Source: a virus | Lineage: Duplodnaviria > Caudoviricetes | Strand: one strand, 5' to 3' | Virus record (IMG/VR): IMGVR_UViG_2654587547_000001 | Span: 1-64,000 of that record | DNA: 64,000 bases | In this document: positions 997 through 51,377 of the stretch, in pieces | Layout: each line of letters begins with the position of its first letter | Position numbering within the stretch: the stretch's first letter is position 1 | Made by a program: the position numbers and the translations under genes | Notes under the pieces: model-generated | Told to the model about the DNA's origin: nothing | Databases searched by the model: none | What the model saw: only the letters and a program-made list of their open reading frames with translations

Positions 997-1145
997 GATT
1001 GCAGGTACTCGGCTAGGTCTTCGGGTGCGAATAGGATTCGGCGCCCGACGCGGTGGCAGGGGATCGGGCCACCTGGGGCGGCCAGATCATAGACGGTACG
1101 AGGGGAGACCCCCAATTCTCGGGCGGCCTCTGGGACTGAGAGCAT
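804..1145 (-). CDS. xis: Excisionase-like HTH protein overlapping the 5' end of int
   Basis: MLSVPEAARELGVSPRTVYDL...IPCHRVGRRILF is a MerR/AlpA-type HTH; GGAGG RBS before ATG 1145. Confidence 0.85.
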   Translation of the reverse strand: MLSVPEAARELGVSPRTVYDLAAPGGPIPCHRVGRRILFAPEDLAEYLQSCRYTETKRAVASCLSSTVSLKGSGSALEKLFQSRGVKPKLTPTTAKSRPDSTRLQLVSSARSS

Positions 1146-1153
1146 ATTGCCTC

Positions 1154-1327
1154 CTAAAACGCGCCTAGCCATATCCCTGTGCCGTGGACCCAGGCGACGG
1201 GGAAGAACAGGGCGCCCGCGATCAAGAATCCCCAGGACGCGGTTTTCAGGCACACGATGATGTGCGTGAACCACGCCAGGATGATCCACAGGAAAAGTAC
1301 GACTACGCCTACTTCTGTTGATTTCAT
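1154..1327 (-). CDS. 57-aa small membrane protein (not in ORF track)
   Basis: MKSTEVGVVVLFLWIILAWFTHIIVCLKTASWGFLIAGALFFPVAWVHGTGIWLGAF; GGAGG RBS; fills the gap between neighbours. Confidence 0.75.
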   Translation of the reverse strand: MKSTEVGVVVLFLWIILAWFTHIIVCLKTASWGFLIAGALFFPVAWVHGTGIWLGAF

Positions 1328-1336
1328 ATCGCCTCC

Positions 1337-1364
1337 AAAACGAAGCCCGCGCTAGGCGGGCTGT
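1337..1364 (-). terminator. Intrinsic terminator upstream of xis/int
   Basis: AGCCCGC-loop-GCGGGCT followed by TCGTTTT on the minus strand. Confidence 0.6.
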
Positions 1365-1891
1365 TGAATCTGGTTTCGGGCTATCTGTAGTAGCCTGGGG
1401 TCGGCCAGTGTTAGGACATCCAGGAGAAGGCGCTTTTCCTCCAGGTAGGTCACAGCAAACTTGGGGTCATGCTGGACGATGCTGCTGGTGTTGCTGATGA
1501 GGTCCGCAACTTTGATGGTTTGGACCCATCCAGGAGCGCCGCCCAGACGCTCGCGAGACAGACGCTTGCGCTCGGCGCGATTGCCTTCCTCCAAATCAGA
1601 CAGGAACCAGACACCCCGCACCACTGCTTCCACTTCGGTCATCGAATAATCGCTGTTGATGCTGAGGTGGTCCCATAGACCGGCCGTGGTGACTCCCTGA
1701 TCCTCCATGCAGTCGTGGAGCCATGCGGTAGCAATCATGACCTGGGGGTGTATAAGCTGCCAGTCGACCACGGTGGCAACGGTTCCGGCGACTTCCGCCA
1801 AATGATCCGTGTACGGGTTGTTGGTGTACTTGCGCCGCTGGTCCTTATGGACAACTCGGGCAAACTCCATAGCGTCAAATGCTAGGCTCAT
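1352..1891 (-). CDS. HD-domain hydrolase, RelA/SpoT small alarmone hydrolase (Mesh1-like)
   Basis: HKDQRRK...PYTDH...LHDCMED...KVADLISN motif series. Confidence 0.85.
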   Translation of the reverse strand: MSLAFDAMEFARVVHKDQRRKYTNNPYTDHLAEVAGTVATVVDWQLIHPQVMIATAWLHDCMEDQGVTTAGLWDHLSINSDYSMTEVEAVVRGVWFLSDLEEGNRAERKRLSRERLGGAPGWVQTIKVADLISNTSSIVQHDPKFAVTYLEEKRLLLDVLTLADPRLLQIARNQIQQPA

Positions 1892-2061
1892 GTTTCCTCC
1901 TTCTCCGGATTAGCCTTCACCCAAGCCCTGGCCCAGCGCTCCATCAGCACGCCGGTATGCGACCAGTTATCAGCGTATCGGTCGATCAGGTGGAATGCGA
2001 TGGCGGGGTCACGCTTGGACCAGTCGTCGGTTTCAGGGTCGATTTCGGGGAGCATCGTCAT
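1888..2061 (-). CDS. 57-aa hypothetical protein (MTMLPEIDPE...)
   Basis: GGAGG RBS and ATGA overlaps on both sides. Confidence 0.6.
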   Translation of the reverse strand: MTMLPEIDPETDDWSKRDPAIAFHLIDRYADNWSHTGVLMERWARAWVKANPEKEET

Positions 2062-2472
2062 GGGGAACCCTCCTTCATGGCGGTCTTGATGGCCTGGGCC
2101 CACGTCTCGGCAATAAATTCTTCGCCAGTGTCTGCGCAAACTATCCGCTTGATCGGCTCGCCTTCTGCCCAATCCGCGCAATGGGCGTACCGGTCCAGCC
2201 AGCGCAGCCCCGCCCCATCCCGCGCCATCGCCACCAGCGCATCCCGCTCGGCGCGGGATGGGGCGGGTCATCTGGCCGTTTCTGCTGGCAAGCCTGTAGG
2301 CCTCGCGCCGGTTCAGGAATCGGCCGGTGTCGTCCAGGAACCCTTGGATATCCGGACCCGGGATGCCGCCCATGGCCCTGATTACGTGGTGATGGCGGTT
2401 CGGCGCAGGAAGGGAATGCACCTTGCCAGCGTGCTTGATGGCTACGTGCGTAATCTTGGGTAGATCAGCCAT
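2058..2472 (-). pseudogene. Two gene remnants fused out of frame at an inverted repeat
   Basis: The 5' part (MADLPKITH...QGFLDDTGRFLNRREAY) and the 3' part (AERDALVAMARDGAGLRWLD...KEGSP*) are in different frames, with the junction at the 18-bp IR. Confidence 0.55.
2209..2267. repeat. Perfect 18-bp inverted repeat with a 23-nt spacer
   Basis: CCCGCCCCATCCCGCGCC (2209-2226) / GGCGCGGGATGGGGCGGG (2250-2267). Confidence 0.9.
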
Positions 2473-2695
2473 GTCCGCCTCCGTCCGTGCGGGGGTGCTG
2501 GGCTGTCAGGGCGGCGCCAGAGTTGATGAGAAGCCCGAACGGATCAGAGCCAACATCCTGGGCGTTACGGCGCTCGCCGGTCCACGGGTTGAACAGCCAT
2601 GCCGTCTTGCCGTTATGCTCGCGCCATTGGGCCGCATGGCTCGGGTAGGGCTTGCTCCAGCCGCTGGCCGGGTCGAATTTCATCAGATCATTCAT
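2465..2695 (-). CDS. Hypothetical phage protein
   Basis: ORF coupled to both neighbours; C-terminal QHPRTDGGG shared with 45365-45985. Confidence 0.7.
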   Translation of the reverse strand: MNDLMKFDPASGWSKPYPSHAAQWREHNGKTAWLFNPWTGERRNAQDVGSDPFGLLINSGAALTAQHPRTDGGGHG

Positions 2696-3737
2696 CGCTC
2701 TCTCCTTTCTCGCCCGTCTGTGTAGCTGTCAAGGATTGCTTGACGACTGACGGGGTGGAGGGCAGGGCACGATCAACGGCAGCTTTGAATCTGTCCACCG
2801 CCTCATCGCTGTTGTGCTTATGCCCAAGCACGTCGAGCTCGCGCTCGTGGGCAATCGCCATCGCGTAATCGAGCAGGTTCTCCCCCGCACTCTTCGCGCA
2901 ATCCCCGCCGTCCTTGTCAGCGTTGGCGCGCAGCCAGTAGATGGCGTTGTCCAGGCTCATCGTGTCAAAGCCCGGGATGTTGCAGAAGCTGATCGCGCGC
3001 CGGGCTTTCTCCAGGTCGTGCTTGTAGCCGATGTTCACCCAGCCCAGCCGCTCCATTTCGTCCTGATCGGCATTGCGCACCGCCTCGCTGGCCTGGGGCG
3101 CGGCATAGAACTTGGCGCCATAGGGATAGCTGTTCAGATCCACCAGCACCTTGAGGTCGCGCTCGCCAAATGCCTCAGGGTCGCCATAGCGCGACACCAC
3201 TTCTGCCACCGGCTTTTCCGCCTCCCCGGCTACAGGGGCGCTTGCCAGGGCGGCGAGTTCTGCTGCAATTCGGGTTTCCACATTGCGGCGAGCAATCGAA
3301 CGAACGGACAGCAAGGTGCTGGACGCCATGCTTTCGCCGTATTCGCTGACGTGTTCCAGAATTCGTTCCAAGGGCGAACCCTCGGCGTCCGCAGACTTGC
3401 GCCAAAGCTGCGCAGCCAGGAATGGGTCATTCTCCAGTTGTTCAACCGAAACTCCTTGAGGGTTGCAGGCGCTGCACGGAATCGACTCCGGGTATCCAGT
3501 GGTGTGGCTGGTGTACCAGCCGGGTCCGCCGCATCGCTTGCACCGCTCATCGGCCACCGGCTCGCCCGCCTGCACGCCCTCCGCGCGCAGCTTGGACAGC
3601 AGGGCGGATTCGATGGCGCGGCCCAGAGCCAGCCCGTACCCGGTCTTGAATGCCCCGTGCGATTGATGGGCGTTGGTGATGATGTCGCGGATTTCGTCAT
3701 CCGTCAGCCCAGGCTGGGCGGCGTTGTTCTCAGTCAT
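2688..3737 (-). CDS. Mosaic early-left protein (Ead/Ea22-like), 349 aa, with a CxxCxGxG Zn-finger module
   Basis: Starts MTENNAAQPGLTDDEI and shares linker blocks with 45978-47579. Confidence 0.8.
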   Translation of the reverse strand: MTENNAAQPGLTDDEIRDIITNAHQSHGAFKTGYGLALGRAIESALLSKLRAEGVQAGEPVADERCKRCGGPGWYTSHTTGYPESIPCSACNPQGVSVEQLENDPFLAAQLWRKSADAEGSPLERILEHVSEYGESMASSTLLSVRSIARRNVETRIAAELAALASAPVAGEAEKPVAEVVSRYGDPEAFGERDLKVLVDLNSYPYGAKFYAAPQASEAVRNADQDEMERLGWVNIGYKHDLEKARRAISFCNIPGFDTMSLDNAIYWLRANADKDGGDCAKSAGENLLDYAMAIAHERELDVLGHKHNSDEAVDRFKAAVDRALPSTPSVVKQSLTATQTGEKGESDE

Positions 3738-4080
3738 GGCTTTCCTTGGTGGTGGGCTGGTTGATCCATTCGGCGAGCGCCTTGGCGGTCGCCGTATCCC
3801 GCGCCTCTCGTGCCGCCCGGACGTCCTGGTCCAAATCTCGAAACGGAACACGGGCGCGGCTGCGCTGGAGCGTGTAGCCGCGCCGCGCCATGAACCGAAG
3901 GAAGACGTCGATCACGTAGCACTGCCCCGTGGCCCAACCGACCTTTCGGGCGATATCGTTGCCCTGCAAGTTGATGATCTCGTGCATGGCCTTGAACAGA
4001 TCCTTCTGGTCGTGGAAGTCGCGCAGCGGCGGCGGCAGATGGGCGCTGCTTTCGAGCCAGGCGGTGGTCTCGTCCATCAC
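3730..4080 (-). CDS. Hypothetical phage protein
   Basis: Coupled ORF (LRDFHDQKDLFKAMHE...). Confidence 0.7.
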   Translation of the reverse strand: MMDETTAWLESSAHLPPPLRDFHDQKDLFKAMHEIINLQGNDIARKVGWATGQCYVIDVFLRFMARRGYTLQRSRARVPFRDLDQDVRAAREARDTATAKALAEWINQPTTKESHD

Positions 4081-4361
4081 GCCTCTCCCTTCTGCTGGGC
4101 AATGGCGGCGGTAAACGTCGGCTCGTATTCAAGGGCGACTTCCCAGCGCCCAATCTCGGGGCCGGTAAAGCCGTCGAATATGGCGAACGTCAGCGGCCAA
4201 TTGGCCTCAAAGCCGTCGTGGTTGCGGAAGTAGTCTTCGGCGCATGCCTCGGCTTCCTCCTCGTCGATATCATCGACAGACGAGCGTTGGACAAATTCCG
4301 GGGCCAAAGTGCGGCGGCGCTCCGGGCCAGATTGCGGCCAAACCCGCGCGTAGAACCTCAT
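4077..4361 (-). CDS. Hypothetical phage protein
   Basis: Coupled ORF ending in the AIAQQKGEA linker. Confidence 0.7.
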   Translation of the reverse strand: MRFYARVWPQSGPERRRTLAPEFVQRSSVDDIDEEEAEACAEDYFRNHDGFEANWPLTFAIFDGFTGPEIGRWEVALEYEPTFTAAIAQQKGEA

Positions 4362-5218
4362 GCTGCACCTCCTTTGTGCGGGACCTGGGCTGCGATGGAG
4401 GCGTCGATAGCGGCATCAAGTTCTTCGCCAGCGCGATACTCATAGGTGTGATATCCGCCAACACCCGGGACGCTTTCATCTTCTGGCACGTAGCCTGTGC
4501 GCTTATCCAGCACTAGGGCAGGGTCAGTTTTTGGGTCACGCAGCCAGCGATACCGCTTGGCATCCAGCGCATCGCCAGCAGCGGGAGCGTTGATACCCAG
4601 GTGCGCCAGAACCGCAGCGGCCTGTTTCTCACTCATCCAGTTCCCGCCACACTCTCCTTCGATCGCATCGCGCAGGCGCTTCACCGCACCCTCAGTCGCC
4701 GCCGTGGAGGCAGGGCGACACGACTTCACATACTCCGCAATGCCCGGAATGTCCTCGAACGCGATGTTGAAGCCGCGACCCTCGCAGGCCTCGCATTCCT
4801 CCTTGAACTCCTGCACGTCGGTCTTGCGCTCGGCGACCTGGTGCTTGACGAACACATGGCCGGAGCCGTTGCACTCGTCGCACGCCAGTTCCCAGTCGCG
4901 ATCCCCCGTCGCTCCGGTGGGTATAGGGTGCGAGGTAGGGGCGGGGGTGCAGTCCGGGCACGGCTCGGCGTCGTATCCGGAATGTTGAGTCAAGCCACCA
5001 ATCATCCCGTGGCCGTTGCAGGTCAAGCAAGGCTCTGCGGGCAGCGGCATCCAGTGCACCGGCTCGCTGTGGACGTATGGCCACACCCATGCACCAACGC
5101 CGTTGTACGCCGCTTGCAGCCAATATCCGTCCGCAATTCTGTGATCACCTTTCCCGCGCAGCAGCACGGAGCTGCCATCCTTCGGCGCGCTGGCGATAGG
5201 CTTCCATTCTGTGTTCAT
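4358..5218 (-). CDS. Mosaic early protein: DUF551-like N-terminus plus DnaJ-like CxxCxGxG Zn fingers
   Basis: WKPIASAPKDG...HWMPLP; CLTCNGHG, CDECNGSG, CEACEGRG; linkers shared with 48331-49458. Confidence 0.8.
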   Translation of the reverse strand: MNTEWKPIASAPKDGSSVLLRGKGDHRIADGYWLQAAYNGVGAWVWPYVHSEPVHWMPLPAEPCLTCNGHGMIGGLTQHSGYDAEPCPDCTPAPTSHPIPTGATGDRDWELACDECNGSGHVFVKHQVAERKTDVQEFKEECEACEGRGFNIAFEDIPGIAEYVKSCRPASTAATEGAVKRLRDAIEGECGGNWMSEKQAAAVLAHLGINAPAAGDALDAKRYRWLRDPKTDPALVLDKRTGYVPEDESVPGVGGYHTYEYRAGEELDAAIDASIAAQVPHKGGAA

Positions 5219-5220
5219 GC

Positions 5221-5358
5221 TCAACTCCAAATCTCGTTGCGGAATATCCAGATGGCAGCCAGTGCAATGTCCACCACGAGCATGCCGAAGAAGCATGCGA
5301 TAGGGTTCAGATCGCCCGGATAGTCATCATCCAGCGGCGGGGAGGATTCGTTGGGCAT
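5221..5358 (-). CDS. 45-aa single-TM protein (not in ORF track)
   Basis: MPNESSPPLDDDYPGDLNPIACFFGMLVVDIALAAIWIFRNEIWS; GGAG RBS. Confidence 0.6.
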   Translation of the reverse strand: MPNESSPPLDDDYPGDLNPIACFFGMLVVDIALAAIWIFRNEIWS

Positions 5359-5363
5359 GGGAT

Positions 5364-5422
5364 CTCCAGGCAATAGAAGGGCAGCCCCGGACAGACGGCG
5401 GGGTACGGGGCTGCGGGGTAGG
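5364..5422 (-). repeat. Conserved intergenic hairpin plus RBS, copy 1
   Basis: Identical to 49627-49686 apart from one G; GCAGCCCCG/CGGGGCTGC stem. Confidence 0.9.
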
Positions 5423-5424
5423 AA

Positions 5425-5922
5425 CTAGAACGGGATGTCGTCGTCCATGTCGGCAAGGTTTGCCGGTGGCGATGATTGAGGCGAAGGGCCGCCGCGTTGG
5501 TTGGCGTACTCGTTGCGTTGGCTCGTCGGGCGTTGTGCTGAGGCGCGCTGCGGCTGGCGCTCAGGCGGCGCACTGTCGCCCTCGTCGCGACCGCCCAGCA
5601 TCTGCATCTGATCGGCCACCACTTCGGTGCTGTAGCGGTCGGCGCCGGTGTCCTTGTCCTGCCATTTGCGCGTCTTGAGGCGGCCTTCCAGATAGACGGA
5701 GCGGCCTTTCTTAAGGTACTCGCCGGCAATCTCGGCCAAGCGGTTGTACAAGACGACGCGGTGCCATTCGGTCTCTTCGCGCTTCTCGCCCGTGGCCTTG
5801 TCCTTCCAGCTGGAAGTCGTGGCTACGGACATGTTGCAGATGGCCCCGCCTTCGGGGTTGTAGCGGACCTCCGGGTCTCGCCCGAGATTGCCCACCAAAA
5901 TGACTTTGTTAACGCTGGCCAT
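5425..5922 (-). CDS. ssb: Single-stranded DNA-binding protein
   Basis: [18 protein letters not shown]...DDDIPF. Confidence 0.97.
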
Positions 5923-6557
5923 TACGCGGCTTCCTTTTTGAGTAGGGTTTCGTACTTCGTGACCATGCGTTCAAACTCCATCAGGTCTGCTTCCAGTTCC
6001 TCGATAGCGTTGTCATCGCGATCGATACGGCGGATGGTCAGGTGCCGGCCGATAGGTTCCAGATCAGGCGCCCACAGAACGAGGTCCACCCACTTGCGGC
6101 CCAGCAGCCACATCGCGCCGTTGCACTGGTCGATGTATTCGCTGATGTCCCCATCCACTACTGCGTTGAACAGGGTTGCGGACGAAACCATCGTCTTGAT
6201 TTCGATTAGGCCATCGGCGTCTACCATGCCGTCCACGCTGACGCCGAACAGGTTGTCTTCGGTGGTGATGAACCCGGCCTCTTCAACAAACAGCTTGGTC
6301 CTGGCTTCGTAGGCGGCGCGGGCGTAGGGCTCCTGCTCAGTGCCGGTACGCATGGCTGCGGTGGCGAACTTGTCGGCCGCATTGCCGCCCAGGCGTTCGC
6401 GGGCCACGTCCATCGCGTAGTCCATGCACTTCTTCGAGGGCGCGCCGCTCTTGAGCTTGTCGCGGCAGTCTTTGAACCGGCTGCCGGTGATGACGCCGCG
6501 CCGCGCTTCCAACCATTCCGGGGAACCCTGCGGGGCCGTTTGGGTGATCAGGTTCAT
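5922..6557 (-). CDS. YqaJ / lambda-exonuclease family protein
   Basis: [17 protein letters not shown]...SVDG...EIK. Confidence 0.92.
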
Positions 6558-7336
6558 CAGGCTTCTCCTTGCTTGAGCATGGCGCGCTTGTCCGCGTAGG
6601 CCTTCTTGAAGGTAGCGAACGCAGCGAGGTTGTTGGTCTTTTGGATGGCTTCACAGCCGTCTTCCCAGATCTTCACCGCTTGGTCCATAGAGTCGGCCTG
6701 TGCGATCTTGCTGATCCAGGAATCTCGAATCTCGTCTGCAGCGTCGTCGGCGCCGTTCCCGTCGTTGTCATCCCCCTTCTCGGAGATCCCGCAGACAGCC
6801 TTGAGCGTGTGGCGCTCCAGGTATGTGGTTGTGGAAACAATGGCCTGGATAGTGTTCTTGCCGCCGCTGTCGTCGGCCGGAGCGTCCAGGGTTACCGACT
6901 TCTCGTGGCCTAGGCGGTGTAGCAGGGTGCAGGTTATGAAGATGCGCCCGTTCTTTTGCTCAGGCGTCCAACTCCACGAAAAGCCGTGCCGAGACAGGGC
7001 GGGGCCGACCGCCTCGACCACATCGGACAGCTCGGCGTGCTTGTACTGAGTGCGGCCCTTCTGGGTGGCGAAGTCGACCTGCTTCCGCTTGATCACTTCC
7101 ACCGCTTCCGCCTTGAAGGCGGCGAAGGCTTCGTTGAAGGCCTTGCGGGCCTCATCGGCTTCCCATTCCCGTTGAATCGCCATCATTTCCTTGATCTGGT
7201 CCAGCGGGATGCCTTGCTTTACCGCCGCCATCATCATGCCCATGGGTGAGTTGGCGGCCAGAACAGCGACTTGGCCGGCTGCAAGATCCGGTTGCGCGGC
7301 CACTGCGCGGGCCGGTGCGTCTAGAACTTCGTTCAT
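6557..7336 (-). CDS. ERF-family ssDNA annealing protein
   Basis: YKHAELSDV...HGFSW...GHEKS...STTTYLERH...DDNDG. Confidence 0.88.
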   Translation of the reverse strand: MNEVLDAPARAVAAQPDLAAGQVAVLAANSPMGMMMAAVKQGIPLDQIKEMMAIQREWEADEARKAFNEAFAAFKAEAVEVIKRKQVDFATQKGRTQYKHAELSDVVEAVGPALSRHGFSWSWTPEQKNGRIFITCTLLHRLGHEKSVTLDAPADDSGGKNTIQAIVSTTTYLERHTLKAVCGISEKGDDNDGNGADDAADEIRDSWISKIAQADSMDQAVKIWEDGCEAIQKTNNLAAFATFKKAYADKRAMLKQGEA

Positions 7337-7343
7337 GGCGTCC

Positions 7344-8441: not shown

Positions 8442-8442
8442 G

Positions 8443-8601
8443 TCAGTCCTTGGCTGCGTATTTGGTGCCGGCTTCTTTGGCAATTCGCTGTTCTTCGTAC
8501 TTGTCCAGCGTCGGCCTGAGTACGCAGGTTGCGGTAAGAAAAACGGCCCCGAAAAGAATCGTGAGGCCGTGGATTTTTAGGAAGTTCAGGAGGCGTTTCA
8601 T
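8443..8601 (-). CDS. Small single-TM protein
   Basis: MKRLLNFLKIHGLTILFGAVFLTATCVLRPTLD...YAAKD; homologue at 52551-52715. Confidence 0.7.
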   Translation of the reverse strand: MKRLLNFLKIHGLTILFGAVFLTATCVLRPTLDKYEEQRIAKEAGTKYAAKD

Positions 8602-8930
8602 GCGGGGCTCCAGGAGGGCCAATACCCCCGGACGTATTCCAGGGCCGTGTCTTTCGAAAGTCGTTCGATTGCTTTCGCCATCTGGTAGCGGCATCCAGGC
8701 CCAAAGATGCCCGAGGCTGCCAACTCAAGAATCTTCTCGGGCCGATCTGCATCACCGACGATGAACGCCAGCATCTGCGCGTCCGGATCGGGAAATTCCT
8801 GCTCGAACGCTTCGGTGACCGCCGTGTGGTGTGCCAACAGATCCGCCTCGATTGCCCGGGCGACCTCTGCGCGCTTTGCCGCGTAAATCTGATCAGGCGG
8901 GTCGAAGGTGAATCTGGGTCGGTTGCCCAT
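8598..8930 (-). CDS. Hypothetical protein
   Basis: GGAG RBS and ATGA coupling. Confidence 0.7.
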   Translation of the reverse strand: MGNRPRFTFDPPDQIYAAKRAEVARAIEADLLAHHTAVTEAFEQEFPDPDAQMLAFIVGDADRPEKILELAASGIFGPGCRYQMAKAIERLSKDTALEYVRGYWPSWSPA

Positions 8931-9147: not shown

Positions 9148-9165
9148 GCCCCGGCAAGCCGGGGC
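9148..9165 (-). terminator. GC hairpin after the DUF1566 gene (terminator and/or DGR-type hairpin)
   Basis: GCCCCGG-CTTG-CCGGGGC followed by GTTCTTT. Confidence 0.6.
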
Positions 9166-9180
9166 AAAGGGATCAATTGA

Positions 9181-43239: not shown

Positions 43240-44328
43240 TCATCGTGTGGGTCCCGCCTTGTCGCCTTTGCGGTGCCGTACATATCGCTCGGTGGTTGAT
43301 ACCGAGCCGTGGCCGAGCTGTTTTTGGGCCTGGCGAATGTCGCCGGCCGATTCGGTTTTGTCTGTGCCGGCCTTGGCGCGCAGGTCGCGGAACTGGAATT
43401 CGGCCTTGGGGACGCCGGCTATTTCCCTGGCCTTGTCGAACCGGTCGCGCAGCGCACCTGCGGTCAGCGGCAAGCCGGATTCGTTCATCACCAGGTACAG
43501 GCTGACCACCTTGTTCTCAGCGCGGTAGAGCGTCTTTCTTGCCTTGATCCGGTCGATCACCTGGGCGAGCTCTCCCGTAATCTCGATCCGTAGTTTCTGG
43601 TCTGTCTTGCCCTGGCGCACGTGCAAGAAGCCGTCGCGCATGTCGGTCTCCAGAAAGCGCAGGGTGTCAGCCGGCCGCTGGCCCGCCAGATAGGCAAGGT
43701 CCATGGCGTCCCGTAGCGGCTCGTCAGCGGCCTTCCAGACCTGAGCATAGGTGTTGTCCTCGACGTAGGTGTCGCGCCCGCGCTCCTTGTTCTTTCGCAC
43801 GCCTTGAGCCGGGTTTGGTGCGTCGGTCAGACCGATCTCGCGGGCATAGTTGAAAATGGCGCTGAACAGCGCGATTTCACGGTTGGCGCGCACGTGGCCG
43901 GCATCCGGCGGCACAGGCCGGCCCTTCTCGCGGAACCAGTCCGCCGCTTTCCCCATGCGCCAGCGGATGTATCGGGTGACGTGGACAGGCTTGATCAACT
44001 CCAGCACCACCGGCGGCTTGTCGAAGATCTCGCACAGGAATTCGAGTTCGATCTGGTTCCCGTCCTGCGTGCGCGGAGCCTTCGTCGGCACAATGTCGGC
44101 GAAGTACCGGTTGGCCGCCTGCCGGAAGGTGACTTGACTGGCGGCGCCCACCGACTGCTGCGTCAGTTGCCCCCAGCGGCGCATGGCCTCGACGAAGTCA
44201 GACCCCAACGGCTCTTCCTTGCGGGGCTTCCCGCCCAGATCAAAGTAGTAGTAGGTCTTGGCGCCGCGGTGGCGCGCGCGCATGCCTGGCGGCAGGCGAT
44301 TGCGGGTAGGCTTGCGCCCCATGCTCAT
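43240..44328 (-). CDS. int: Tyrosine recombinase / phage integrase
   Basis: AGQRPAD, QGKT, FRDLRAK, LGH, TERY. Confidence 0.95.
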   Translation of the reverse strand: MSMGRKPTRNRLPPGMRARHRGAKTYYYFDLGGKPRKEEPLGSDFVEAMRRWGQLTQQSVGAASQVTFRQAANRYFADIVPTKAPRTQDGNQIELEFLCEIFDKPPVVLELIKPVHVTRYIRWRMGKAADWFREKGRPVPPDAGHVRANREIALFSAIFNYAREIGLTDAPNPAQGVRKNKERGRDTYVEDNTYAQVWKAADEPLRDAMDLAYLAGQRPADTLRFLETDMRDGFLHVRQGKTDQKLRIEITGELAQVIDRIKARKTLYRAENKVVSLYLVMNESGLPLTAGALRDRFDKAREIAGVPKAEFQFRDLRAKAGTDKTESAGDIRQAQKQLGHGSVSTTERYVRHRKGDKAGPTR

Positions 44329-45372: not shown

Positions 45373-45985
45373 GTCCGCCTCCGTCCGTGCGGGGGTGCTG
45401 GGGATTGCCCGCCTGCATGGCACGTTCGCGCTTGCGCTCGGCCTCGATAAGGCTCTGCGCGGCCTCGCGGATATCGCCCGCCACGCTGCCTGCCCACCAG
45501 CGGACCATGCACGACAGCACATCGTTGTCGTACTGCGTCGGCGAGTAGACCCGGCGCCAATCCACCGCGTGCGCGACCGTCTGATGCAGACGCGGTACGC
45601 CACCGGGGGTCAGCATCGCTTCCGTCAGGATGATTCCGCTGTTGACGCCGTAGTTCCGCAGGTTCGCGATAGCCCATGCCGCCACGAACGCCTCTTCGCG
45701 GCGCAAGTAGCCTTCGTACTTGGCCAGTCGTTCAGCGACATACGTAAAGGACTGGCCTGCGTTGCAACCCATCCAGACCATGAACGACGCTGCCACGCGC
45801 GCACCGCGCTGGTCTAAAGGCTCGCACAAGTCGCCGAATACCTCGCGCAGTGCGTTCCGGTTTGCGCCCAGGTACTCGCGCCACAGGTCGAGGTAAATCC
45901 GTTCACCGTGGAAGCCGGCGCGCGGCAGGTTGACGGGTATGTGCCGCAGCTCACGCCGGCCGGCTACAGGTGTCGGTTCACGCAT
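45365..45985 (-). CDS. Hypothetical phage protein
   Basis: Coupled ORF bounded by shared linkers. Confidence 0.75.
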   Translation of the reverse strand: MREPTPVAGRRELRHIPVNLPRAGFHGERIYLDLWREYLGANRNALREVFGDLCEPLDQRGARVAASFMVWMGCNAGQSFTYVAERLAKYEGYLRREEAFVAAWAIANLRNYGVNSGIILTEAMLTPGGVPRLHQTVAHAVDWRRVYSPTQYDNDVLSCMVRWWAGSVAGDIREAAQSLIEAERKRERAMQAGNPQHPRTDGGGRE

Positions 45986-47579
45986 CGCTCTCTCCTTTCT
46001 CGCCCGTCTGTGTAGCTGTCAAGGATTGCTTGACTACTGAATGCTGGTCAGCGGTTCCCCACTTCGCGCGGGTAGCGTTGAAACAGTCGGGCGCGCGTCG
46101 ATTCGGGTGGTTGGGGTCTTTCGACCCGCAGCACAGCCAGTACTTCTGCTGGCCATCCCCCGCACCCTTCGCGCAATCCCCGCCGTCCAGAACATCGGCC
46201 ATGGCTCGACCGCCGAAGCTGCGAGCGATGGCGGCAGCCTCCTTGCATTGCGCTTCGGTCGGGCCGCCGACCTTGTCAGCCTGGGTTTTGAGGGCGCGTT
46301 CGAGTTCGTCGTATGCCTGACGGATACGGGCTACTTCGTCCATGACCGGCGACCGATAGATCAGTTCCTGGTCATCTGACTTTCGCGTGTCCGGCCCATC
46401 AGCCCTAGCGATGTCGGCAAGTGCCTTGATAACCTTCGATCCGCAAGTCTTGATTGCCTGGCGCGTAGCGTCCGCCTCGCTGGCCTGGGGCGCGGCACAG
46501 GCGCGTGGGTGTAGACGGTCGTATTCCGTCTTAGCTGCTGCGAACGCGGCTTCTCGATTCGGCCATTCTTTGTTGAACGCCTCACCGCACGCCTTGAACG
46601 TGCTGACAGGGGCGTAGCCATTGCCGTCCGTCAGGTACTGGTCTGCGAAGTCGCCAAAGGCGTCATTGGCGTCGTCGGTATGCGCCTCCCCGGATACAGG
46701 GGCGCTTGCCAGCCGTGCTTTCAGTCGCTCCACGGCGTCCATCTGCGCAATGGCGGCATCGCCGGGGACGCCTGCCATGTTCAGGGCCATGTCCAGATCG
46801 TCGTCGCCCGTATTCCAGGTTTCCCGCTCGTCGGCTACAGGGGCGCTTGCCGGCAGTCGCCGAATGCCAAGCTCCCATTCTTCCAATTCCTCATCCAGGA
46901 CATTTATGTGCCGCTTAACGTCTTCCACGGAAGTCGCGTAGACCTCGTGACCCATGCCGTCGTCACCCGGGACAACTTCCAGCAGGATCGACGTAACAGA
47001 CTGCTCCCCGACTACAGGGGCGCTTGCCAGGGCGGCGAGTTCTGCTGCAATTCGGGTTTCCACATTGCGGCGAGCAATCGAACGAACGGACAGCAAGGTG
47101 CTGGACACCATGCTTTCGCCGTATTCGCTGACGTGTTCCAGAATTCGTTCCAAGGGCGAACCCTCGGCGTCCGCAGACTTGCGCCAAAGCTGCGCAGCCA
47201 GGAATGGGTCCTTCGCCAGTTGTTCAACCGAAACCCCTTGAGGGTTGCAGGCGCTGCACGGAATCGACTCCGGGTATCCAGTGGTGTGGCTGGTGTACCA
47301 GCCGGGTCCGCCGCATCGCTTGCACCGCTCATCGGCCACCGGCTCGCCCGCCTGCACGCCCTCCGCGCGCAGCTTGGACAGCGCATTGACTACGGCGTTG
47401 ACCATGTTTTTGCGAATATCGAAGGCGACAGACACCGGAGAGGCTACCGGCTCGCGGCCTTCACGGGCGGCTATGCGGGTCATCGTGTCGTAACACTCTG
47501 CGTAGATTTCTAGAGCGCGGCGCACCGCTTCGATTTCGTCATCCGTCAGCCCAGGCTGGGCGGCGTTGTTCTCAGTCAT
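45978..47579 (-). CDS. Mosaic early-left protein, 533 aa
   Basis: Same start, linkers and end as 2688-3737; three ASAPV repeats. Confidence 0.85.
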   Translation of the reverse strand: MTENNAAQPGLTDDEIEAVRRALEIYAECYDTMTRIAAREGREPVASPVSVAFDIRKNMVNAVVNALSKLRAEGVQAGEPVADERCKRCGGPGWYTSHTTGYPESIPCSACNPQGVSVEQLAKDPFLAAQLWRKSADAEGSPLERILEHVSEYGESMVSSTLLSVRSIARRNVETRIAAELAALASAPVVGEQSVTSILLEVVPGDDGMGHEVYATSVEDVKRHINVLDEELEEWELGIRRLPASAPVADERETWNTGDDDLDMALNMAGVPGDAAIAQMDAVERLKARLASAPVSGEAHTDDANDAFGDFADQYLTDGNGYAPVSTFKACGEAFNKEWPNREAAFAAAKTEYDRLHPRACAAPQASEADATRQAIKTCGSKVIKALADIARADGPDTRKSDDQELIYRSPVMDEVARIRQAYDELERALKTQADKVGGPTEAQCKEAAAIARSFGGRAMADVLDGGDCAKGAGDGQQKYWLCCGSKDPNHPNRRAPDCFNATRAKWGTADQHSVVKQSLTATQTGEKGESDA

Positions 47580-48334
47580 GCGGTGTACTCCAGTTCGGCC
47601 GTCTCGCAGAAGAATGAGCAGGACGGCAGCAATTCGTTGCGGCGTGCGGGGCCATCCGGCAGATCGCGTAAGGAATAGCGCTCGCCGGTCTTGCGGTTGC
47701 GGAACAGGTGGGAACCGGGGCCAATTTCGTCCTGCACCTGGCACAGCGTTTCGAATTCGGCGGGGAAGTCCTGGCGGATCGCGCGGAAGTAGCCCTCGCC
47801 GCCTTTCACGCATCCGATGCAATTCGCGTTGTCGTAGCCCAGGCGGTACATGTAAGGCAGTTCGATGCCGGCCCGTTCGATCATGGCCTTGCAGTCGTCT
47901 TTGCTAAGGCCGCGCTCGATGAGGGGAGCAAGGACCGGGCGGTCCGGATTGCGCTCGCGGAAGTCGTCGAGACGGTCGGATTCTTCAGCCGTGTAGCCGA
48001 ACACCATCACATCGCCGGGGAGTGCGAACGTATCCAGCAGCCGGCGCTTCAATTCGCGCGAGCAGGGAGCGCCGTGCGGGCCTTTCATGAACTGCTTTCG
48101 CCGAAATACTTGGATGATGTCCGCCCCGTACTTCAGATCGCGTAGGATGGTAACTTCGCGCCCGAACCAGGCTTTGCAATCACTCAGAAAACGGCTGTTG
48201 TCCGCATGCTCGTTCACCAGGAAGGCGTTGATGATGTGCACTTCATGAGTGTCGCCGTACTGGGCCAGCGCCAGCTTGGTGGCGACGGCGGAAGCAGCAC
48301 CGCAGGAAAACTGGCAGACGATGCGTTCCATCAC
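47576..48334 (-). CDS. PAPS-reductase-like (PP-loop) protein
   Basis: FSCGAASAVA; CSRELK; GYDNANCIGCVKGG; CSFFC. Confidence 0.8.
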   Translation of the reverse strand: MMERIVCQFSCGAASAVATKLALAQYGDTHEVHIINAFLVNEHADNSRFLSDCKAWFGREVTILRDLKYGADIIQVFRRKQFMKGPHGAPCSRELKRRLLDTFALPGDVMVFGYTAEESDRLDDFRERNPDRPVLAPLIERGLSKDDCKAMIERAGIELPYMYRLGYDNANCIGCVKGGEGYFRAIRQDFPAEFETLCQVQDEIGPGSHLFRNRKTGERYSLRDLPDGPARRNELLPSCSFFCETAELEYTA

Positions 48335-49458
48335 GCCTCCTTCCGCTGGGACTGCTGGGCAATGGCGGCGGCTTCTGCTGCGGATCGGATATGGTCCATG
48401 TACGCCCAGGCGACAACGCGGCTAGGGTCCATTCCTGAACGCCATGCCCCATTGAATCGAGCGGCTTCCAGTGCTTCCTTGTCAGAGCTAGGGAGAACCA
48501 ATTGGCTTGCTTCGATATTTCCCCGAGCAGTGATCACGGCGCACCACTTGGATGACCACTGGCCCGCATAGCTGGGTGAGTATTCAACGAGATCCGGCAG
48601 ACCCTCCGAAACCGGGGTGAACCTGATATTTAGAAGGCTGGCTGCATCCAGCGCATCGCCAGCAGCGGGAGCGCTGACCTTGGCGGCAATGGCTTCTTCC
48701 AGCGACACCAGATCGCGGCGGAAATGAACCTGGTCATGGCCGTAGCCGAAGCGCGCGCACAGACTGCGGTGGAAATTCTTGTACTCGCCGTAGATCTGCA
48801 AATGCTGCATCCGCTCGCTCTGCAATGCTCTAGCGAGGTTCTTGGCAGCGTCTGCCGCGCTACCGGAGCCGTCGCAATGCGTGCAGTCGATGTCCACGTC
48901 ATGGGCATCGGGGCTGTTGTCGCTCAGAACGCTTATGCGACCGCCGCCATCACATTCCGGGCAGTAGGGCGACATGCCGGAGCGGTCCTGTTCCTCCCCC
49001 GTCGCTCCGGTGGGTATAGGGTGCGAGGTAGGGGCGGGACGTGCTGGCGGATATGCTTCGGCGGTCATGGCCTGCTCAAGAGCAGTGCGGAGGTTTTCGT
49101 TCCAGTCCTCACCGATGACGCGCTCTTGCGGTTTCTCCATGAAGTGAGCCACGATTTCAATGCCGATGTTGTAATCACCAGCGTCACCATTCGACGACGA
49201 CAGGAAGCGCACATCCCAACAACCGTCTTGGATGGCTTCCAGCAATTTGCTATCGCGCTTCCATTTTTCAATTTCCTTTTTGTCGAGAGATTCATCCGAT
49301 GCCGATTCGGCAAGCATGCTCTGCCTAGCGCTGTACAGTGCGAGCCGGACGCTTTCAGCTTCATGGACGCCATTCAGCTTCCACAGCAGGGTTTCCAAGT
49401 CTCCAGACCGTATCAATTCATGGATCGAACTCGGGACTAGCTTCCATTCTGTGTTCAT
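48331..49458 (-). CDS. Mosaic early protein with a CxxCxGxG Zn finger
   Basis: MNTEWK start and PTSHPIPTGATG / APAAGDALDA linkers shared with 4358-5218. Confidence 0.8.
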   Translation of the reverse strand: MNTEWKLVPSSIHELIRSGDLETLLWKLNGVHEAESVRLALYSARQSMLAESASDESLDKKEIEKWKRDSKLLEAIQDGCWDVRFLSSSNGDAGDYNIGIEIVAHFMEKPQERVIGEDWNENLRTALEQAMTAEAYPPARPAPTSHPIPTGATGEEQDRSGMSPYCPECDGGGRISVLSDNSPDAHDVDIDCTHCDGSGSAADAAKNLARALQSERMQHLQIYGEYKNFHRSLCARFGYGHDQVHFRRDLVSLEEAIAAKVSAPAAGDALDAASLLNIRFTPVSEGLPDLVEYSPSYAGQWSSKWCAVITARGNIEASQLVLPSSDKEALEAARFNGAWRSGMDPSRVVAWAYMDHIRSAAEAAAIAQQSQRKEA

Positions 49459-50440: not shown

Positions 50441-50763
50441 TGGCTGTCCTTCGATCCAAGCATCTGCATTTGATCCGCGATGATCTCGGTGACGTATCGC
50501 TTGGTACCGTCCTTCTCGTATTCACGAGTTTGCATGTGGCCCTGGATGAACACCTGCTTCCCTTTCTTCAGGTACTCACCGCAAATTTCGGCAAGCTTGC
50601 CAAAGGCGGTGACGCGGACCCATTCCGTCCCTTCCTTGCTGCTGGTCTTCCAGCCGCAGGCAAGCGAGAAGTTGGCGACGGCGGCCCCCTCAGGGGAATA
50701 CCGCATTTCCACATCCTTGCCGAGACGGCCGATAAATTGGCATTGGTTCAGGTCGTTGCTCAT
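50437..50763 (-). CDS. ssb: SSB without the acidic C-terminal tail
   Basis: OB fold IGRLGKD...YLKKGKQV; ends GSKDSQ. Confidence 0.9.
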   Translation of the reverse strand: MSNDLNQCQFIGRLGKDVEMRYSPEGAAVANFSLACGWKTSSKEGTEWVRVTAFGKLAEICGEYLKKGKQVFIQGHMQTREYEKDGTKRYVTEIIADQMQMLGSKDSQ

Positions 50764-51377
50764 TACGCTGCCTTCTTGAGTTCGCTCATGCGCTGGTTGA
50801 AATGGGCCGTGGCTGCGCGCTTTTGGTCGGCAGTCAGGCCGTTCATGATCTTTACGAGGTCCGGTACAGACGCCGCCGCATTCATCTGCGCGGTGACTTC
50901 AGCGTCCATTTCGGCGGGTGCCGCTGGGCTGTCGTCATTCGCGGATGCGACTTGGTGGGTATGCCCGTCCGCGTCGTTGTCGCCCTCGGTGGGGATGCAG
51001 AACGCTTGGAACGCGGCGTACTTGTAGGCGGCTGACATTGCCTTGTTGGTGGCCTTGTCGCCGCTGTCCATCGCCTCGCCAAACGTCTTGACCGTGTGCT
51101 TGCTGCCGTCTGCGGTAGACACGAAGTCGAATTCGGCCTCTACCGTGATGTAGAACAGCGCACCACCTTGCTTGCTGACGCGCTCCACCGACTCCCGGGA
51201 AAGCACACGCGGCAGGATGCACAGCCCCTTGTCGGCCAACAGCGGCGCCAGGGCGTTGTAGATGTCGTCAATGCCCCGGAAGTTGTACCCGGAGCCCTGC
51301 GTGTTCCTGCGGTCCTTGCTGATGCCGATCTTGGCGAGTTCCGCCTGCACGGCATTGATTGCCTTGTAGACTTCCAT
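50763..51377 (-). CDS. ERF-family ssDNA annealing protein
   Basis: YNFRGIDDIYN...GEAMDSGDKATNKAMSAAYKY. Confidence 0.9.
   Translation of the reverse strand: MEVYKAINAVQAELAKIGISKDRRNTQGSGYNFRGIDDIYNALAPLLADKGLCILPRVLSRESVERVSKQGGALFYITVEAEFDFVSTADGSKHTVKTFGEAMDSGDKATNKAMSAAYKYAAFQAFCIPTEGDNDADGHTHQVASANDDSPAAPAEMDAEVTAQMNAAASVPDLVKIMNGLTADQKRAATAHFNQRMSELKKAA

What the first reader, a model, noticed from the sequence alone, without database searches (positions are those of the whole stretch)
2465..5422. Early-left proteins are in-frame mosaics joined by conserved linker islands shared between the two prophages
Seen: comparing 2.4-5.4 kb with 45.3-49.7 kb gives a colinear chain of near-identical islands separated by unrelated sequence. 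The pairs are 2473-2502/45373-45402 (QHPRTDGGG), 2693-2750/45983-46040 (VVKQSLTATQTGEKGESD), 2881-2913/46156-46188 (DGGDCAK), 3080-3105/46472-46497 (AAPQASEA), 3219-3247/46683-46711 (ASAPVxGEA), 3230-3600/47012-47382 (one whole shared module), 3690-3738/47532-47580 (MTENNAAQPGLTDDEI), the AIAQQ junction, 4560-4589/48644-48673 (APAAGDALDA), 4902-4945/48995-49038 (PTSHPIPTGATG), MNTEWK and 5364-5422/49627-49686. Many islands lie inside ORFs and keep the frame. Known: intergenic boundary sequences and variable Ea22/Ead proteins are described in lambdoid phages. Inference: this is a sub-gene cassette system in which the neighbouring ERF annealase swaps 30-100 aa domains between fixed linkers, giving combinatorial effector or anti-defence polyproteins.
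Basis: partly seen in the sequence, partly recalled or inferred. Interest (0 to 1): 0.78.

Follow-up and report, generated by a model that had tools for sequence, protein, structure and literature searches.

The report
Phage proteins shuffled at fixed linkers
Two neighbouring prophages carry early genes for string-of-beads proteins whose small domains are joined by a few short linkers that are almost letter-identical in DNA across many Achromobacter/Bordetella phages, so that domains can be swapped in frame by recombination.

Summary
The sequence between them is unrelated, except for one slot with 29%-identical zinc-finger modules.

About half the islands are gene boundaries carrying the ribosome-binding site and start of the next gene. 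One is an intergenic hairpin. The others are in-frame linkers inside multi-module proteins.

The same linkers recur in more than 100 Achromobacter/Bordetella prophage proteins, in a fixed order: LSKLRA.. < ASAPVAGE (repeated) < AAPQASEA < QADKDGG < LSAQPGAQK. They separate 539 modules that fall into 359 sequence clusters.

Codon-blind scans of viral contigs show the linkers are fixed at DNA level. For example, 54 of 69 LASAPVAGEA sites share one 29-mer that includes rare codons, in about 58 different flanking contexts. Breakpoints lie at linkers about three times more often than at random, and neighbouring modules re-assort.

Best reading: in-frame micro-homology crossover sites for module shuffling. 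The roles proposed for ERF, anti-defence and a cleaved polyprotein remain untested. I rate it a new variant of the known boundary-sequence mosaicism of phages.

The parts
2688..3737 (-). Prophage A multi-module gene (P0003, 349 aa; MTENNAAQ... to ...GEKGESDE)
   Evidence: codon-position GC 0.65/0.47/0.75
45978..47579 (-). Prophage B multi-module gene (P0004, 533 aa), same ends and linkers, more modules
4358..5218 (-). Prophage A second multi-module gene (P0001, 286 aa, MNTEWK...; DnaJ-type CxxCxGxG zinc finger above Pfam cut-off)
48331..49458 (-). Prophage B second multi-module gene (P0002, 375 aa); in A the last part is a separate 94-aa gene (4077-4361)
3220..3248 (-). V linker (LASAPVAGEA) in A. 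The same 29-mer is shared by 54 of 69 viral contigs that encode this peptide
46683..46712 (-). V linker copy 3 in B (LASAPVSGEA); further copies at 46820-46851 and 47004-47033
3564..3599 (-). K linker (LSKLRAEGVQAG) in A, N-terminal edge of the shared module; B copy at 47346-47381
3222..3600 (-). Shared module (zinc-ribbon plus helical part), 98.7% identical to 47004-47382, bounded exactly by the K and V linkers
3080..3108 (-). Q linker (AAPQASEA) in A; B copy 46472-46500
2881..2913 (-). D linker (DGGDCAK) in A; B copy 46156-46188
4902..4945 (-). T linker (PTSHPIPTGATG) in P0001; B copy 48995-49038
4560..4593 (-). A linker (APAAGDALDA) in P0001; B copy 48644-48677
2693..2750 (-). Gene-boundary island: C-terminal tail VVKQSLTATQTGEKGESD, which encodes the SD (AAAGGAGAG) and overlaps the ATG of the next gene; B copy 45983-46040
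2470..2502 (-). Gene-boundary island: ...QHPRTDGGG tail with GGAGG and the ATG/GTG of the next gene; B copy 45370-45402
3690..3738 (-). Island starting at the ATG of the multi-module gene (MTENNAAQPGLTDDEI); B copy 47532-47580
4073..4111 (-). Gene-boundary island (...AAIAQQ..KGEA stop, SD, GTG-ATG start of the next gene); B copy 48327-48371
5200..5222 (-). Island at the start MNTEWK, overlapping the stop of the small upstream ORF; B copy 49440-49462
5360..5422 (-). Intergenic island: GC-rich 9-bp-stem hairpin followed by the RBS of a small membrane-protein ORF; B copy 49622-49686
   Evidence: -23.1 kcal/mol, z -2.4
5221..5358 (-). Small hydrophobic ORF (45 aa) in A. B has an unrelated 51-aa hydrophobic ORF in the same slot (49463-49618)
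6557..7336 (-). ERF-family annealase of A, beside YqaJ exonuclease (5922-6557) and SSB (5425-5922)
50763..51377 (-). ERF-family annealase of B, beside SSB (50437-50763) and a PolB-exo-like exonuclease (49691-50440)
43240..44328 (-). Integrase of prophage B (the integrase of A is at 1-996). It marks the int-proximal end of the early-left operon

Best explanation
The int-proximal early-left operons of these two Achromobacter-type lambdoid prophages encode beads-on-a-string proteins. Small modules (about 17-200 aa, almost all without a known family) are joined by a small set of Ala/Pro/Gly-rich linker peptides in a fixed order:
- K: LSKLRA(PVADE or EGVQAG)
- V: (A)LASAPVAGE, repeated 0-5 times
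- Q: AAPQASEA
- D: QADKDGG(DCAK)
- S: ALSAQPGAQK
- in the neighbouring gene, T: PTSHPIPTGATG and A: APAAGDALDA

Each linker is encoded by a 21-43-nt stretch that is nearly invariant in DNA across the Achromobacter/Bordetella phage pool, while the modules on either side differ.

Shown here: the linkers are identical by descent at nucleotide level, recombination breakpoints concentrate at them, and modules re-assort between genes and even between the two gene families.

Inferred: the linkers act as in-frame micro-homology crossover points for homologous recombination between co-resident or co-infecting phages.
- Because the linker types are ordered, hybrids stay colinear and in frame.
- Because the V linker is repeated, the number of modules can change.
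- The enzyme is most likely the phage's own annealase/exonuclease pair (ERF with YqaJ or another exonuclease), since the homologies are about as short as such enzymes need; RecA is possible.

Gene-boundary islands do the same at whole-gene level and coincide with the SD and start of the next gene.

The function of the proteins is unknown. Position and content suggest accessory host-takeover or counter-defence proteins. That step is inference only.
For: (1) Observation in the window.

(2) Family. 105 proteins (P0003-P0107), named Achromobacter or Bordetella where a source gives a name, each cover only 8-100% of P0004. The commonest 5-mers are linkers: ASAPV in 94 of 105 proteins, APQAS in 85, LSKLR in 70.

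(3) Order. Linker-to-linker steps obey K<=V<=Q<=D<=S in 351 of 366 steps (105 proteins) and 185 of 186 steps (69 viral ORFs).

(4) Module diversity. 539 modules fall into 359 clusters, 294 of them singletons. For the 65 recurrent modules, pairs of occurrences share the left neighbour in 49 of 512 cases and the right neighbour in 49 of 829.

(5) DNA invariance, from codon-blind degenerate scans of IMG/VR:
- LASAPVAGEA: 69 loci, 54 with one identical 29-mer. In the 66 loci with full flanks there are 58 left and 55 right flank classes.
- AAPQASEAVR: 39 of 48 identical, 41/38 flank classes.
- APAAGDALDA: 18 of 22 identical, 20/17 flank classes.
- Within the 69 ORFs: K 32 of 33, Q 28 of 31.
- T linker 8 of 8, DGGDCAK 8 of 8.
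- Given the codon usage outside the linkers, the chance of the exact V-linker codons is 10^-5.5 per site. They include the minor codons GCA, CCT, GTA and GGG.

(6) Breakpoints.
- Protein HSP ends lie within 5 aa of a linker in 53.5% of cases against 18.4% at random (2261 ends).
- DNA HSP ends (>=100 nt, >=90% identity) lie within 15 nt in 105 of 184 cases (57%) against 17% at random; for HSPs >=150 nt, 96 of 156 (62%) against 18%.

(7) Independent sample. A contig of run X4, from another study, matches only islands 48647-48677, 48997-49036 and 49432-49472, with other letters between them.

(8) Island length is 21-43 nt. The minimal efficient pairing length is quoted as 23-27 bp for Red-beta and 31-34 bp for RecA, and Erf of phage D3 was as efficient as Red on diverged substrates (PMC3945230, passages read).

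(9) An ERF, an exonuclease and an SSB lie directly upstream in both prophages.

(10) The AF2 model of P0003 has pTM 0.32, and its helices stop at the linkers.
Against: (a) Synonymous conservation in the linkers is only modestly above that of shared modules. The same-codon fraction is 0.94 against 0.89 for recurrent 7-mers, and 0.95-0.99 against 0.92 (only 2 module clusters had n>=4). Part of the invariance may therefore reflect a young, fast-exchanging gene pool.

(b) About 40% of DNA breakpoints lie more than 15 nt from a linker that my pattern recognises (79 of 184). By inspection many of these sit at other recurrent junctions, but I did not count them.

(c) Several islands (21-29 nt) are at or below the quoted pairing minima.

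(d) No protein carries the same module twice (0 of 107). Unequal crossing-over at the repeated V linker should sometimes produce duplicates.

(e) How a new module acquires linkers on both sides is unexplained.

(f) Sampling is biased. The hits were collected through shared words or linker patterns, and the protein database is collapsed at 90% identity, which inflates apparent re-assortment.

(g) Nothing ties ERF specifically to the exchanges.

(h) There are no data on expression or on the protein products.
Confidence: 0.7

Rival explanations
1. The linkers are conserved only because the peptides are needed, as flexible interdomain linkers or recognition or cleavage sites. The mosaics arise by illegitimate recombination followed by selection of in-frame survivors. 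The DNA identity is simply recent ancestry.
For: The linkers are Ala/Pro/Gly-rich and lie where predicted helices end. Shared modules are also about 89-92% identical at synonymous codons. A passage read in PMC3029335 says that most phage mosaic joints lack boundary sequences, which makes illegitimate recombination an attractive mechanism.
Against: Independent illegitimate joints would not recreate one 29-mer with four minor codons in about 58 different contexts. In the codon-blind scans almost no copy of the peptides uses other codons: the 15 non-identical V sites each differ at one or two positions. Breakpoints are enriched threefold at the linkers.
Confidence: 0.12
2. The nucleotide invariance reflects a role in expression. 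The linkers would be translational pause or internal initiation sites (rare codons, an SD-like GGGGAGG in the V linker) that help modules fold one by one or yield nested products. Shuffling would be a by-product.
For: The V, K, T and A linkers use minor codons: GCA 0.15, CCT 0.16, GTA 0.12, GGG 0.19, ATA 0.07, GCT 0.12 of their synonymous sets. The V linker carries GGGGAGG, and the consensus that follows it includes a GTG 7 nt downstream. Gene-boundary islands really are SD-plus-start elements.
Against: Conservation downstream of the V linker falls to 0.3-0.7, so a start codon is not kept. The Q, S and K linkers have no such motif. There are no expression data. This reading does not explain the ordered linker types or the breakpoints.
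Confidence: 0.1
3. A site-specific cassette system, like an integron or a shufflon: a dedicated recombinase recognises the islands and excises or inserts modules.
For: The repeats are short, direct and nearly invariant and flank cassette-like units. The number of units varies from protein to protein.
Against: At least seven different island sequences exist without a common core; only K and V share 14 nt. No inverted-repeat architecture was seen in the linkers. The only recombinases found nearby are the integrase and the ERF/exonuclease set.
Confidence: 0.04
4. The modules are fast-diverging homologues that evolve in place between conserved anchors, by diversifying selection or targeted mutagenesis, and are not shuffled.
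For: One slot holds 29%-identical zinc-finger modules between 100%-identical linkers.
Against: Modules differ in length and composition, and 294 of 359 clusters are singletons. The same module recurs near-identically in different slots and with different neighbours, for example the zinc-ribbon module, with 15 occurrences, 10 left and 15 right neighbours. One module of P0002 appears inside a protein of the other gene family (P0138).
Confidence: 0.04

Closest known systems
Boundary (linker) sequences of lambdoid phages and the modular theory of phage evolution (Botstein; Clark, Juhala and Hendrix; recalled. PMC3029335 read in passages)
   Same: Short conserved sequences at module junctions are proposed as sites of homologous recombination. 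Six of the 12 islands here are of this kind, at gene boundaries and including the SD and start.
   Different: Here the same principle works inside genes, in frame. The linkers are ordered, coding, and invariant across the phage pool at DNA level, and the exchanged units are 17-200-aa protein modules, not genes.
Relaxed homologous recombination by Rad52-like phage recombinases (Red-beta, Erf, Sak; De Paepe et al. 2014, PMC3945230, passages read)
   Same: A phage annealase/exonuclease pair sits next to the mosaic genes, and the homologies are about as short as the quoted minimum for Red-beta (23-27 bp).
   Different: That work used homologies of hundreds of bp, some diverged. No experiment links ERF to these 21-43-nt islands.
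Lambda Ea22/Ead-type variable early-left accessory proteins (recalled; the search found no description of linkers)
   Same: Same position, between the recombination genes and xis/int. Variable, multi-part, function largely unknown.
   Different: No Pfam or PHROG match to an Ea22-named family was returned. The linker syntax is not described for Ea22 in anything I could find.
Polyvalent proteins of phages and conjugative elements (Iyer et al. 2017, PMC5512222, abstract and passages read)
   Same: Many unrelated domains (2-15) in one polypeptide of an invasive element, thought to act early in conflicts with the host.
   Different: Polyvalent proteins are large, built from enzymatic domains (methylase-helicase, MPTase peptidase, ParB and others), and are delivered with the DNA. 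The word 'linker' does not occur in that paper. Here the modules are tiny and unannotated (7 Pfam member-hits in 105 proteins).
Variable-domain exchange at conserved coding motifs: collagen-like repeats between domains of Streptococcus thermophilus phage antireceptors (PMC5601072, one passage), and the VENN and PxxxxDPxGL demarcation motifs of CdiA/Rhs toxins (recalled)
   Same: A conserved in-frame coding motif marks the border of a swappable protein part.
   Different: Those systems have one or two borders and one variable region. Here up to eight borders of at least seven kinds form an ordered chain.
Protein-fragment mosaicism in phages (Smug et al. 2023, PMC10684548, passages read)
   Same: Ongoing shuffling of protein fragments between phages.
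   Different: That survey is domain-database based. It states that proteins of unknown function are under-sampled, and the words 'linker' and 'breakpoint' do not occur in its text.

Membership tests
Boundary-sequence mosaicism of lambdoid phages | Short sequences conserved between otherwise unrelated segments, at module junctions | tested here: met
Boundary-sequence mosaicism of lambdoid phages | Junctions lie between genes | tested here: inconclusive
   Of the 12 listed islands, 6 are at gene starts or ends and 1 is an intergenic hairpin. The other 5, plus the K linker, are inside genes and in frame.
Boundary-sequence mosaicism of lambdoid phages | Recombination breakpoints coincide with the conserved sequences | tested here: met
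   105 of 184 DNA breakpoints lie within 15 nt of a linker, against 17% at random. At protein level 53.5% against 18.4%.
Ea22/Ead-like early proteins | Sequence similarity to the family | tested here: not met
   No family so named appears among the Pfam or PHROG matches returned. PHROG listing B shows only 25 of 39 families.
Ea22/Ead-like early proteins | Location in the early-left operon between the recombination genes and int | tested here: met
   Gene order in both prophages is int ... multi-module genes ... SSB, exonuclease, ERF, all on one strand.
Polyvalent proteins (Iyer et al. 2017) | Several unrelated domains in one polypeptide of a phage or plasmid | tested here: met
   Up to about 8 modules per protein.
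Polyvalent proteins (Iyer et al. 2017) | Characteristic enzymatic domains (MTase-helicase, MPTase, ParB, RadC and others) | tested here: not met
   Pfam on 105 proteins returned only dATP/dGTP pyrophosphohydrolase (2), DUF3850 (2), AlpA (1) and HTH (2).
Polyvalent proteins (Iyer et al. 2017) | Packaged or transferred with the DNA | not testable with these tools
   The genes lie among early genes, not virion genes.
Site-specific cassette systems (integron, shufflon) | One recombination-site type and a dedicated recombinase | tested here: not met
   At least seven different island sequences. No extra recombinase was seen beside int and ERF.
ERF superfamily annealase (PF04404) | Pfam match above the gathering score | tested here: met
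   6557-7336 scores 54.4 bits and 50763-51377 scores 81.9 bits; the cut-off is 25.
DnaJ-type CxxCxGxG zinc finger (PF00684) | Pfam match above the gathering score | tested here: inconclusive
   P0001 scores 34.8 bits, above the cut-off of 32.7. P0002 (22.3), P0003 (15.1) and P0004 (13.5) are below it.

The most novel reading that the evidence does not exclude
These phages maintain a genuine diversity generator for small host-directed proteins. In this reading the ordered, nucleotide-invariant, in-frame 'address' linkers are kept because they let the phage's own annealase assemble new combinations from a shared library of hundreds of mini-domains, a natural counterpart of modular cloning. The linkers would be fossil gene boundaries of once separate small early genes: the V linker still carries an SD-like GGGGAGG, and true gene boundaries in the same operon are islands of the same kind. 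They may still act as translational pause or internal start sites.
Probability: 0.2. Interest if true: 0.85.

Novelty: new variant of a known kind. Interest (0 to 1): 0.68.

Why it matters
Phage mosaicism is usually described gene by gene, and most joints show no conserved sequence. That has left open how much homologous recombination at linkers, as Botstein's modular theory proposed, really contributes.

Here is a natural system in which the linker principle is visible inside genes, at population scale:
- a handful of 21-43-nt coding islands, fixed down to their synonymous sites
- these join several hundred different mini-domains in a conserved order

This gives a directly testable model for micro-homology-guided, in-frame domain shuffling by phage annealases, because a linker can be recoded synonymously and exchange measured.

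It also gives a ready-made parts list: the linkers delimit more than 350 sequence clusters of small, unannotated phage early-protein modules. Among these, counter-defence or host-takeover activities could be screened.

Tried and rejected
- **The search for related loci in genome contigs** with P0004 gave only 1 locus, because the tool chose module-specific peptides.
- **The genome search** over the family of that genome found matches in 7 of 301 genomes searched. The yield was too low for a census. My first attempt, with a locus given as the centre, was an input error, which I corrected through a handle.
- **Foldseek** of the P0003 model against the PDB found 0 matches at E <= 0.001.
- **ESM Atlas** on the commonest (zinc-ribbon) module gave a best score of 0.84 for an unnamed cluster, and a 'Lar family' cluster at 0.77. 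That is below the level the tool calls more than a lead, and Pfam does not support it. I dropped it.
- **PHROG families** named 'Mu Gam-like end protection' and 'host nuclease inhibitor' match 4 of 105 members each. I could not locate the modules responsible among the 18 proteins I looked at singly, so I build nothing on them.
- **No RNA holder** was listed for the region. All runs were contigs, so rare recombinant joints could not be looked for.
- **Internal translation starts** after the V linker: not pursued, because conservation falls to 0.3-0.7 just downstream.
- **Within-protein module duplications**, as a signature of unequal crossing-over: none in 107 proteins.
- **Literature**: searches returned no paper describing these linkers or this protein family.

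Full report
**Observation.** I compared window 1-14000 with 42001-64000 by blastn.
- Thirteen of the 16 HSPs form one colinear chain in 2470-5422 / 45370-49686.
- They are 23-65 bp long and, apart from one gapped 82% match, 96.6-100% identical. One further match is a 379-bp module at 98.7%.
- The nearest ordinary homologous stretch between the two prophages (7333-8461/51441-52569) is only 88% identical, so the islands stand out from the background.
- Between the islands BLASTP finds nothing. The exception is the slot between PTSHPIPTGATG and APAAGDALDA, where both prophages carry CxxCxGxG zinc-finger modules at 29% identity.

**Anatomy.** The window is the first 64 kb of an 87-kb provirus record. 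It holds two lambdoid-type prophages in the same orientation.
- Each has an integrase (1-996; 43240-44328) and an SSB, exonuclease and ERF set (5425-7336; 49691-51377). The finding lies between these, in the position of lambda's early-left accessory genes.
- The real genes are on the minus strand:
  - 2688-3737 (P0003, 349 aa) and 45978-47579 (P0004, 533 aa)
  - 4358-5218 (P0001) plus 4077-4361, against 48331-49458 (P0002)
  - Smaller genes that differ between the prophages sit in the same slots. For example, a phrog_15705 gene in A (3730-4080) corresponds to a PAPS-reductase-like gene in B (47576-48334).
- The GC content by codon position fits the minus-strand frames.

**Three kinds of island.**
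- *Gene boundaries*. These are 2470-2502, 2693-2750, 4073-4111, 5200-5222 and the gene start at 3690-3738.
  - The conserved C-terminal tails (..GEKGESD, ..HPRTDGGG, ..AIAQQ.KGEA) encode the SD sequence (AAAGGAGAG, GGAGG, AAGGGAGAGG).
  - They also overlap the start codon of the next gene.
- *One intergenic element.* 5360-5422 is a 9-bp GC stem-loop (-23.1 kcal/mol, z -2.4) in front of a small hydrophobic ORF, whose sequence differs between A and B.
- *In-frame linkers inside the long genes.* These are LSKLRAEGVQAG, ASAPVxGE (once in A, three times in B), AAPQASEA and DGGDCAK. The second gene has PTSHPIPTGATG and APAAGDALDA.
- The shared 379-bp module is bounded exactly by the K and V linkers.

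**The family.** A word-seeded HMMER search with P0004 returned 105 proteins, the two window proteins included. Where a source gives a name they are mostly Achromobacter or Bordetella. Each matches only 8-100% of the query. A search for shorter forms gave 31 more with the same build.
- The commonest 5-mers are linkers: ASAPV in 94 of 105 proteins, APQAS in 85, LSKLR in 70. The caveat is that hits were selected by words shared with the query.
- Printed out, the proteins are strings of small modules separated by K, V, Q, D and S linkers.
- The order K<=V<=Q<=D<=S holds in 351 of 366 linker-to-linker steps in these proteins, and in 185 of 186 steps in 69 viral ORFs. V occurs 0-5 times per protein.
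- Cutting at the linkers gives 539 modules of 15 aa or more, in 359 clusters at 80% mutual coverage; 294 are singletons.
- For the 65 recurrent modules, two occurrences share the left neighbour in 49 of 512 pairs and the right neighbour in 49 of 829. The 90% clustering of the database inflates this re-assortment.
- No protein has the same module twice (0 of 107).
- Modules cross between the two gene families: P0138 carries the N-terminal module of P0002.
- Single modules also occur in multi-module proteins of Burkholderia phage vB_E436 and Acidovorax phage ACP17, which use other linkers.

**DNA-level invariance.** To avoid selecting on codons, I scanned IMG/VR with fully degenerate back-translations of the linker peptides.
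- LASAPVAGEA: 69 loci, of which 54 carry one identical 29-mer (the one at window 3220-3248). The other 15 differ at one or two positions.
  - In the 66 loci with full flanks, the 75-nt flanks fall into 58 left and 55 right classes.
  - The conserved stretch runs from about -9 to +33 around the motif.
- AAPQASEAVR: 39 of 48 identical, with 41/38 flank classes.
- APAAGDALDA: 18 of 22 identical, with 20/17 flank classes.
- Within the 69 ORFs, K is identical in 32 of 33 sites, Q in 28 of 31, and S occurs in two versions (9 and 4 of 13).
- HPIPTGATG is identical in 8 of 8 sites and DGGDCAK in 8 of 8.
- The fixed codons include minor ones (GCA, CCT, GTA, GGG, ATA, GCT). From codon usage outside the linkers, the chance of the exact V-linker codons given the peptide is 10^-5.5 per site.
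- Island lengths by an 80%-majority rule are 21-43 nt.
- Control: recurrent 7-mers inside modules have a same-codon fraction of 0.89 (58 peptides, 1-7 contexts each). For linkers it is 0.94 (40 peptides, up to 64 contexts).
  - A second control gave 0.92 against 0.95-0.99.
  - The linkers are therefore only modestly more conserved per site than shared modules.
  - What sets them apart is that one DNA version sits in dozens of unrelated contexts.

**Breakpoints.**
- Protein level (107 proteins, 1227 HSPs, 2261 internal ends): 53.5% of ends lie within 5 aa of a linker, against 18.4% for random positions.
- DNA level, on the independent IMG/VR set, counting each distinct end once:
  - HSPs of at least 100 nt and 90% identity: 105 of 184 ends (57%) lie within 15 nt of a linker, against 17% at random.
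  - HSPs of at least 150 nt: 96 of 156 (62%), against 18%.
- The 79 remaining ends include many at other recurrent junctions that my pattern misses: the N-terminal NNAAQP.L|TD edge, IRALK.., WRKP|, VR|NAALEE, and gene starts. I did not count these.
- HSPs are not independent events.

**Other samples.** Contigs of four public runs were laid on 45300-49700.
- X1, probably the source sample, reproduces the A-on-B chain as joints.
- In X4, from another study, one 1505-nt contig matches 47743-48370 and then only the islands 48647-48677, 48997-49036 and 49432-49472, with other letters in between.
- This is a third phage with the same islands and different modules.
- All runs were contigs, so rare recombinants could not be sought.

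**What the modules are.**
- Pfam recognises almost nothing: 7 member-hits in 105 proteins (dATP/dGTP pyrophosphohydrolase, DUF3850, AlpA, HTH).
- PHROGs gives 39 families, mostly of unknown function. Several have short profiles (60-135 positions), the length of stand-alone small phage proteins.
- An AF2 model of P0003 has mean pLDDT 66.7 and pTM 0.32. Its helices stop at the linkers and no overall fold is predicted. Foldseek finds no PDB match.
- Function is therefore unknown. 'Host-takeover or counter-defence accessory proteins' is inference from position and architecture.

**Mechanism.** The data show that the linkers are identical by descent, that joints concentrate at them, and that modules re-assort.
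- The simplest mechanism is homologous recombination at these micro-homologies between phages that meet in one cell.
- Equal crossovers at ordered, distinct linkers keep hybrids colinear and in frame. The repeated V linker, and the 14 nt shared by K and V, allow the number of modules to change.
- The island lengths match the minimal pairing length quoted for Red-beta (23-27 bp) better than that for RecA (31-34 bp). Erf of phage D3 was as efficient as Red on diverged substrates (PMC3945230, passages).
- That makes the adjacent ERF/exonuclease pair the likely enzyme. This is inference: only 13 of 69 related loci showed an ERF_A-like gene and 24 a YqaJ gene within their limited flanks.
- Open problems: how new modules acquire linkers, why duplicates are absent, and whether the rare codons and the SD-like GGGGAGG in the V linker have a role of their own in translation.

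**Comparison and novelty.**
- The principle, conserved boundary sequences that guide homologous exchange, is classical for lambdoid phages (passage in PMC3029335; the primary papers are recalled).
- Protein-fragment shuffling in phages is documented (PMC10684548), and multi-domain 'polyvalent' proteins are known (PMC5512222).
- My searches did not find the following described: an ordered set of coding, nucleotide-invariant linkers chaining hundreds of mini-domains inside early genes.
- I therefore rate it a new variant of a known kind.
- The library does not hold most subscription-journal papers, and supplements were closed, so an earlier description cannot be excluded.

Noticed in passing
window 3220-3248 (-) and the 69 loci: The V linker is written with several minor codons (GCA, CCT, GTA, GGG) and contains an SD-like GGGGAGG. 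The consensus after it continues with a GTG 7 nt downstream, though that part is only 30-70% conserved.
   Followed up: partly
window 5221-5358 (-) and 49463-49618 (-): Both prophages have a small ORF for a hydrophobic, probably membrane-spanning peptide (45 and 51 aa) in the same slot. The two are unrelated in sequence and are framed by conserved islands.
   Followed up: partly
window 7344-8483 (-) and 51452-52675 (-): A long Glu/Ala/Arg/Lys-rich, coiled-coil-like protein (379 and 407 aa) next to ERF. It is 88% identical in DNA between the prophages and has no Pfam family.
   Followed up: no
window 47576-48334 (-) versus 3730-4080 (-): The slot between two islands holds a PAPS-reductase-like gene (phrog_424, E 8e-49) in prophage B and an unrelated 116-aa gene (phrog_15705) in prophage A.
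   Followed up: no
window 12109-12757/54986-55634 and 13356-13532/56372-56551: Further homologous stretches between the two prophages at 78-81% identity, outside the early-left region.
   Followed up: no
proteins P0003-P0107: No protein of the family carries the same module twice (0 of 107), although the V linker is repeated up to five times.
   Followed up: partly
P0017 (Bordetella bronchiseptica): One family member ends in an AlpA/excisionase-type DNA-binding domain (residues 431-490). Related proteins are therefore annotated 'transcriptional regulator', as in phage vB_BbrM_PHB04.
   Followed up: no
L084:1357-2712 (Burkholderia phage vB_E436) and L083:274-1287 (Acidovorax phage ACP17): Multi-module proteins of phages of other Burkholderiales share single modules with P0004 (38-52% identity) but have different, less regular Ala/Pro linkers. 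The architecture may be wider than the linker set.
   Followed up: partly
window 1352-1891 (-): A weak HD-domain (HD_4) match, below the Pfam cut-off, in a 179-aa gene between the integrase and the mosaic region of prophage A.
   Followed up: no
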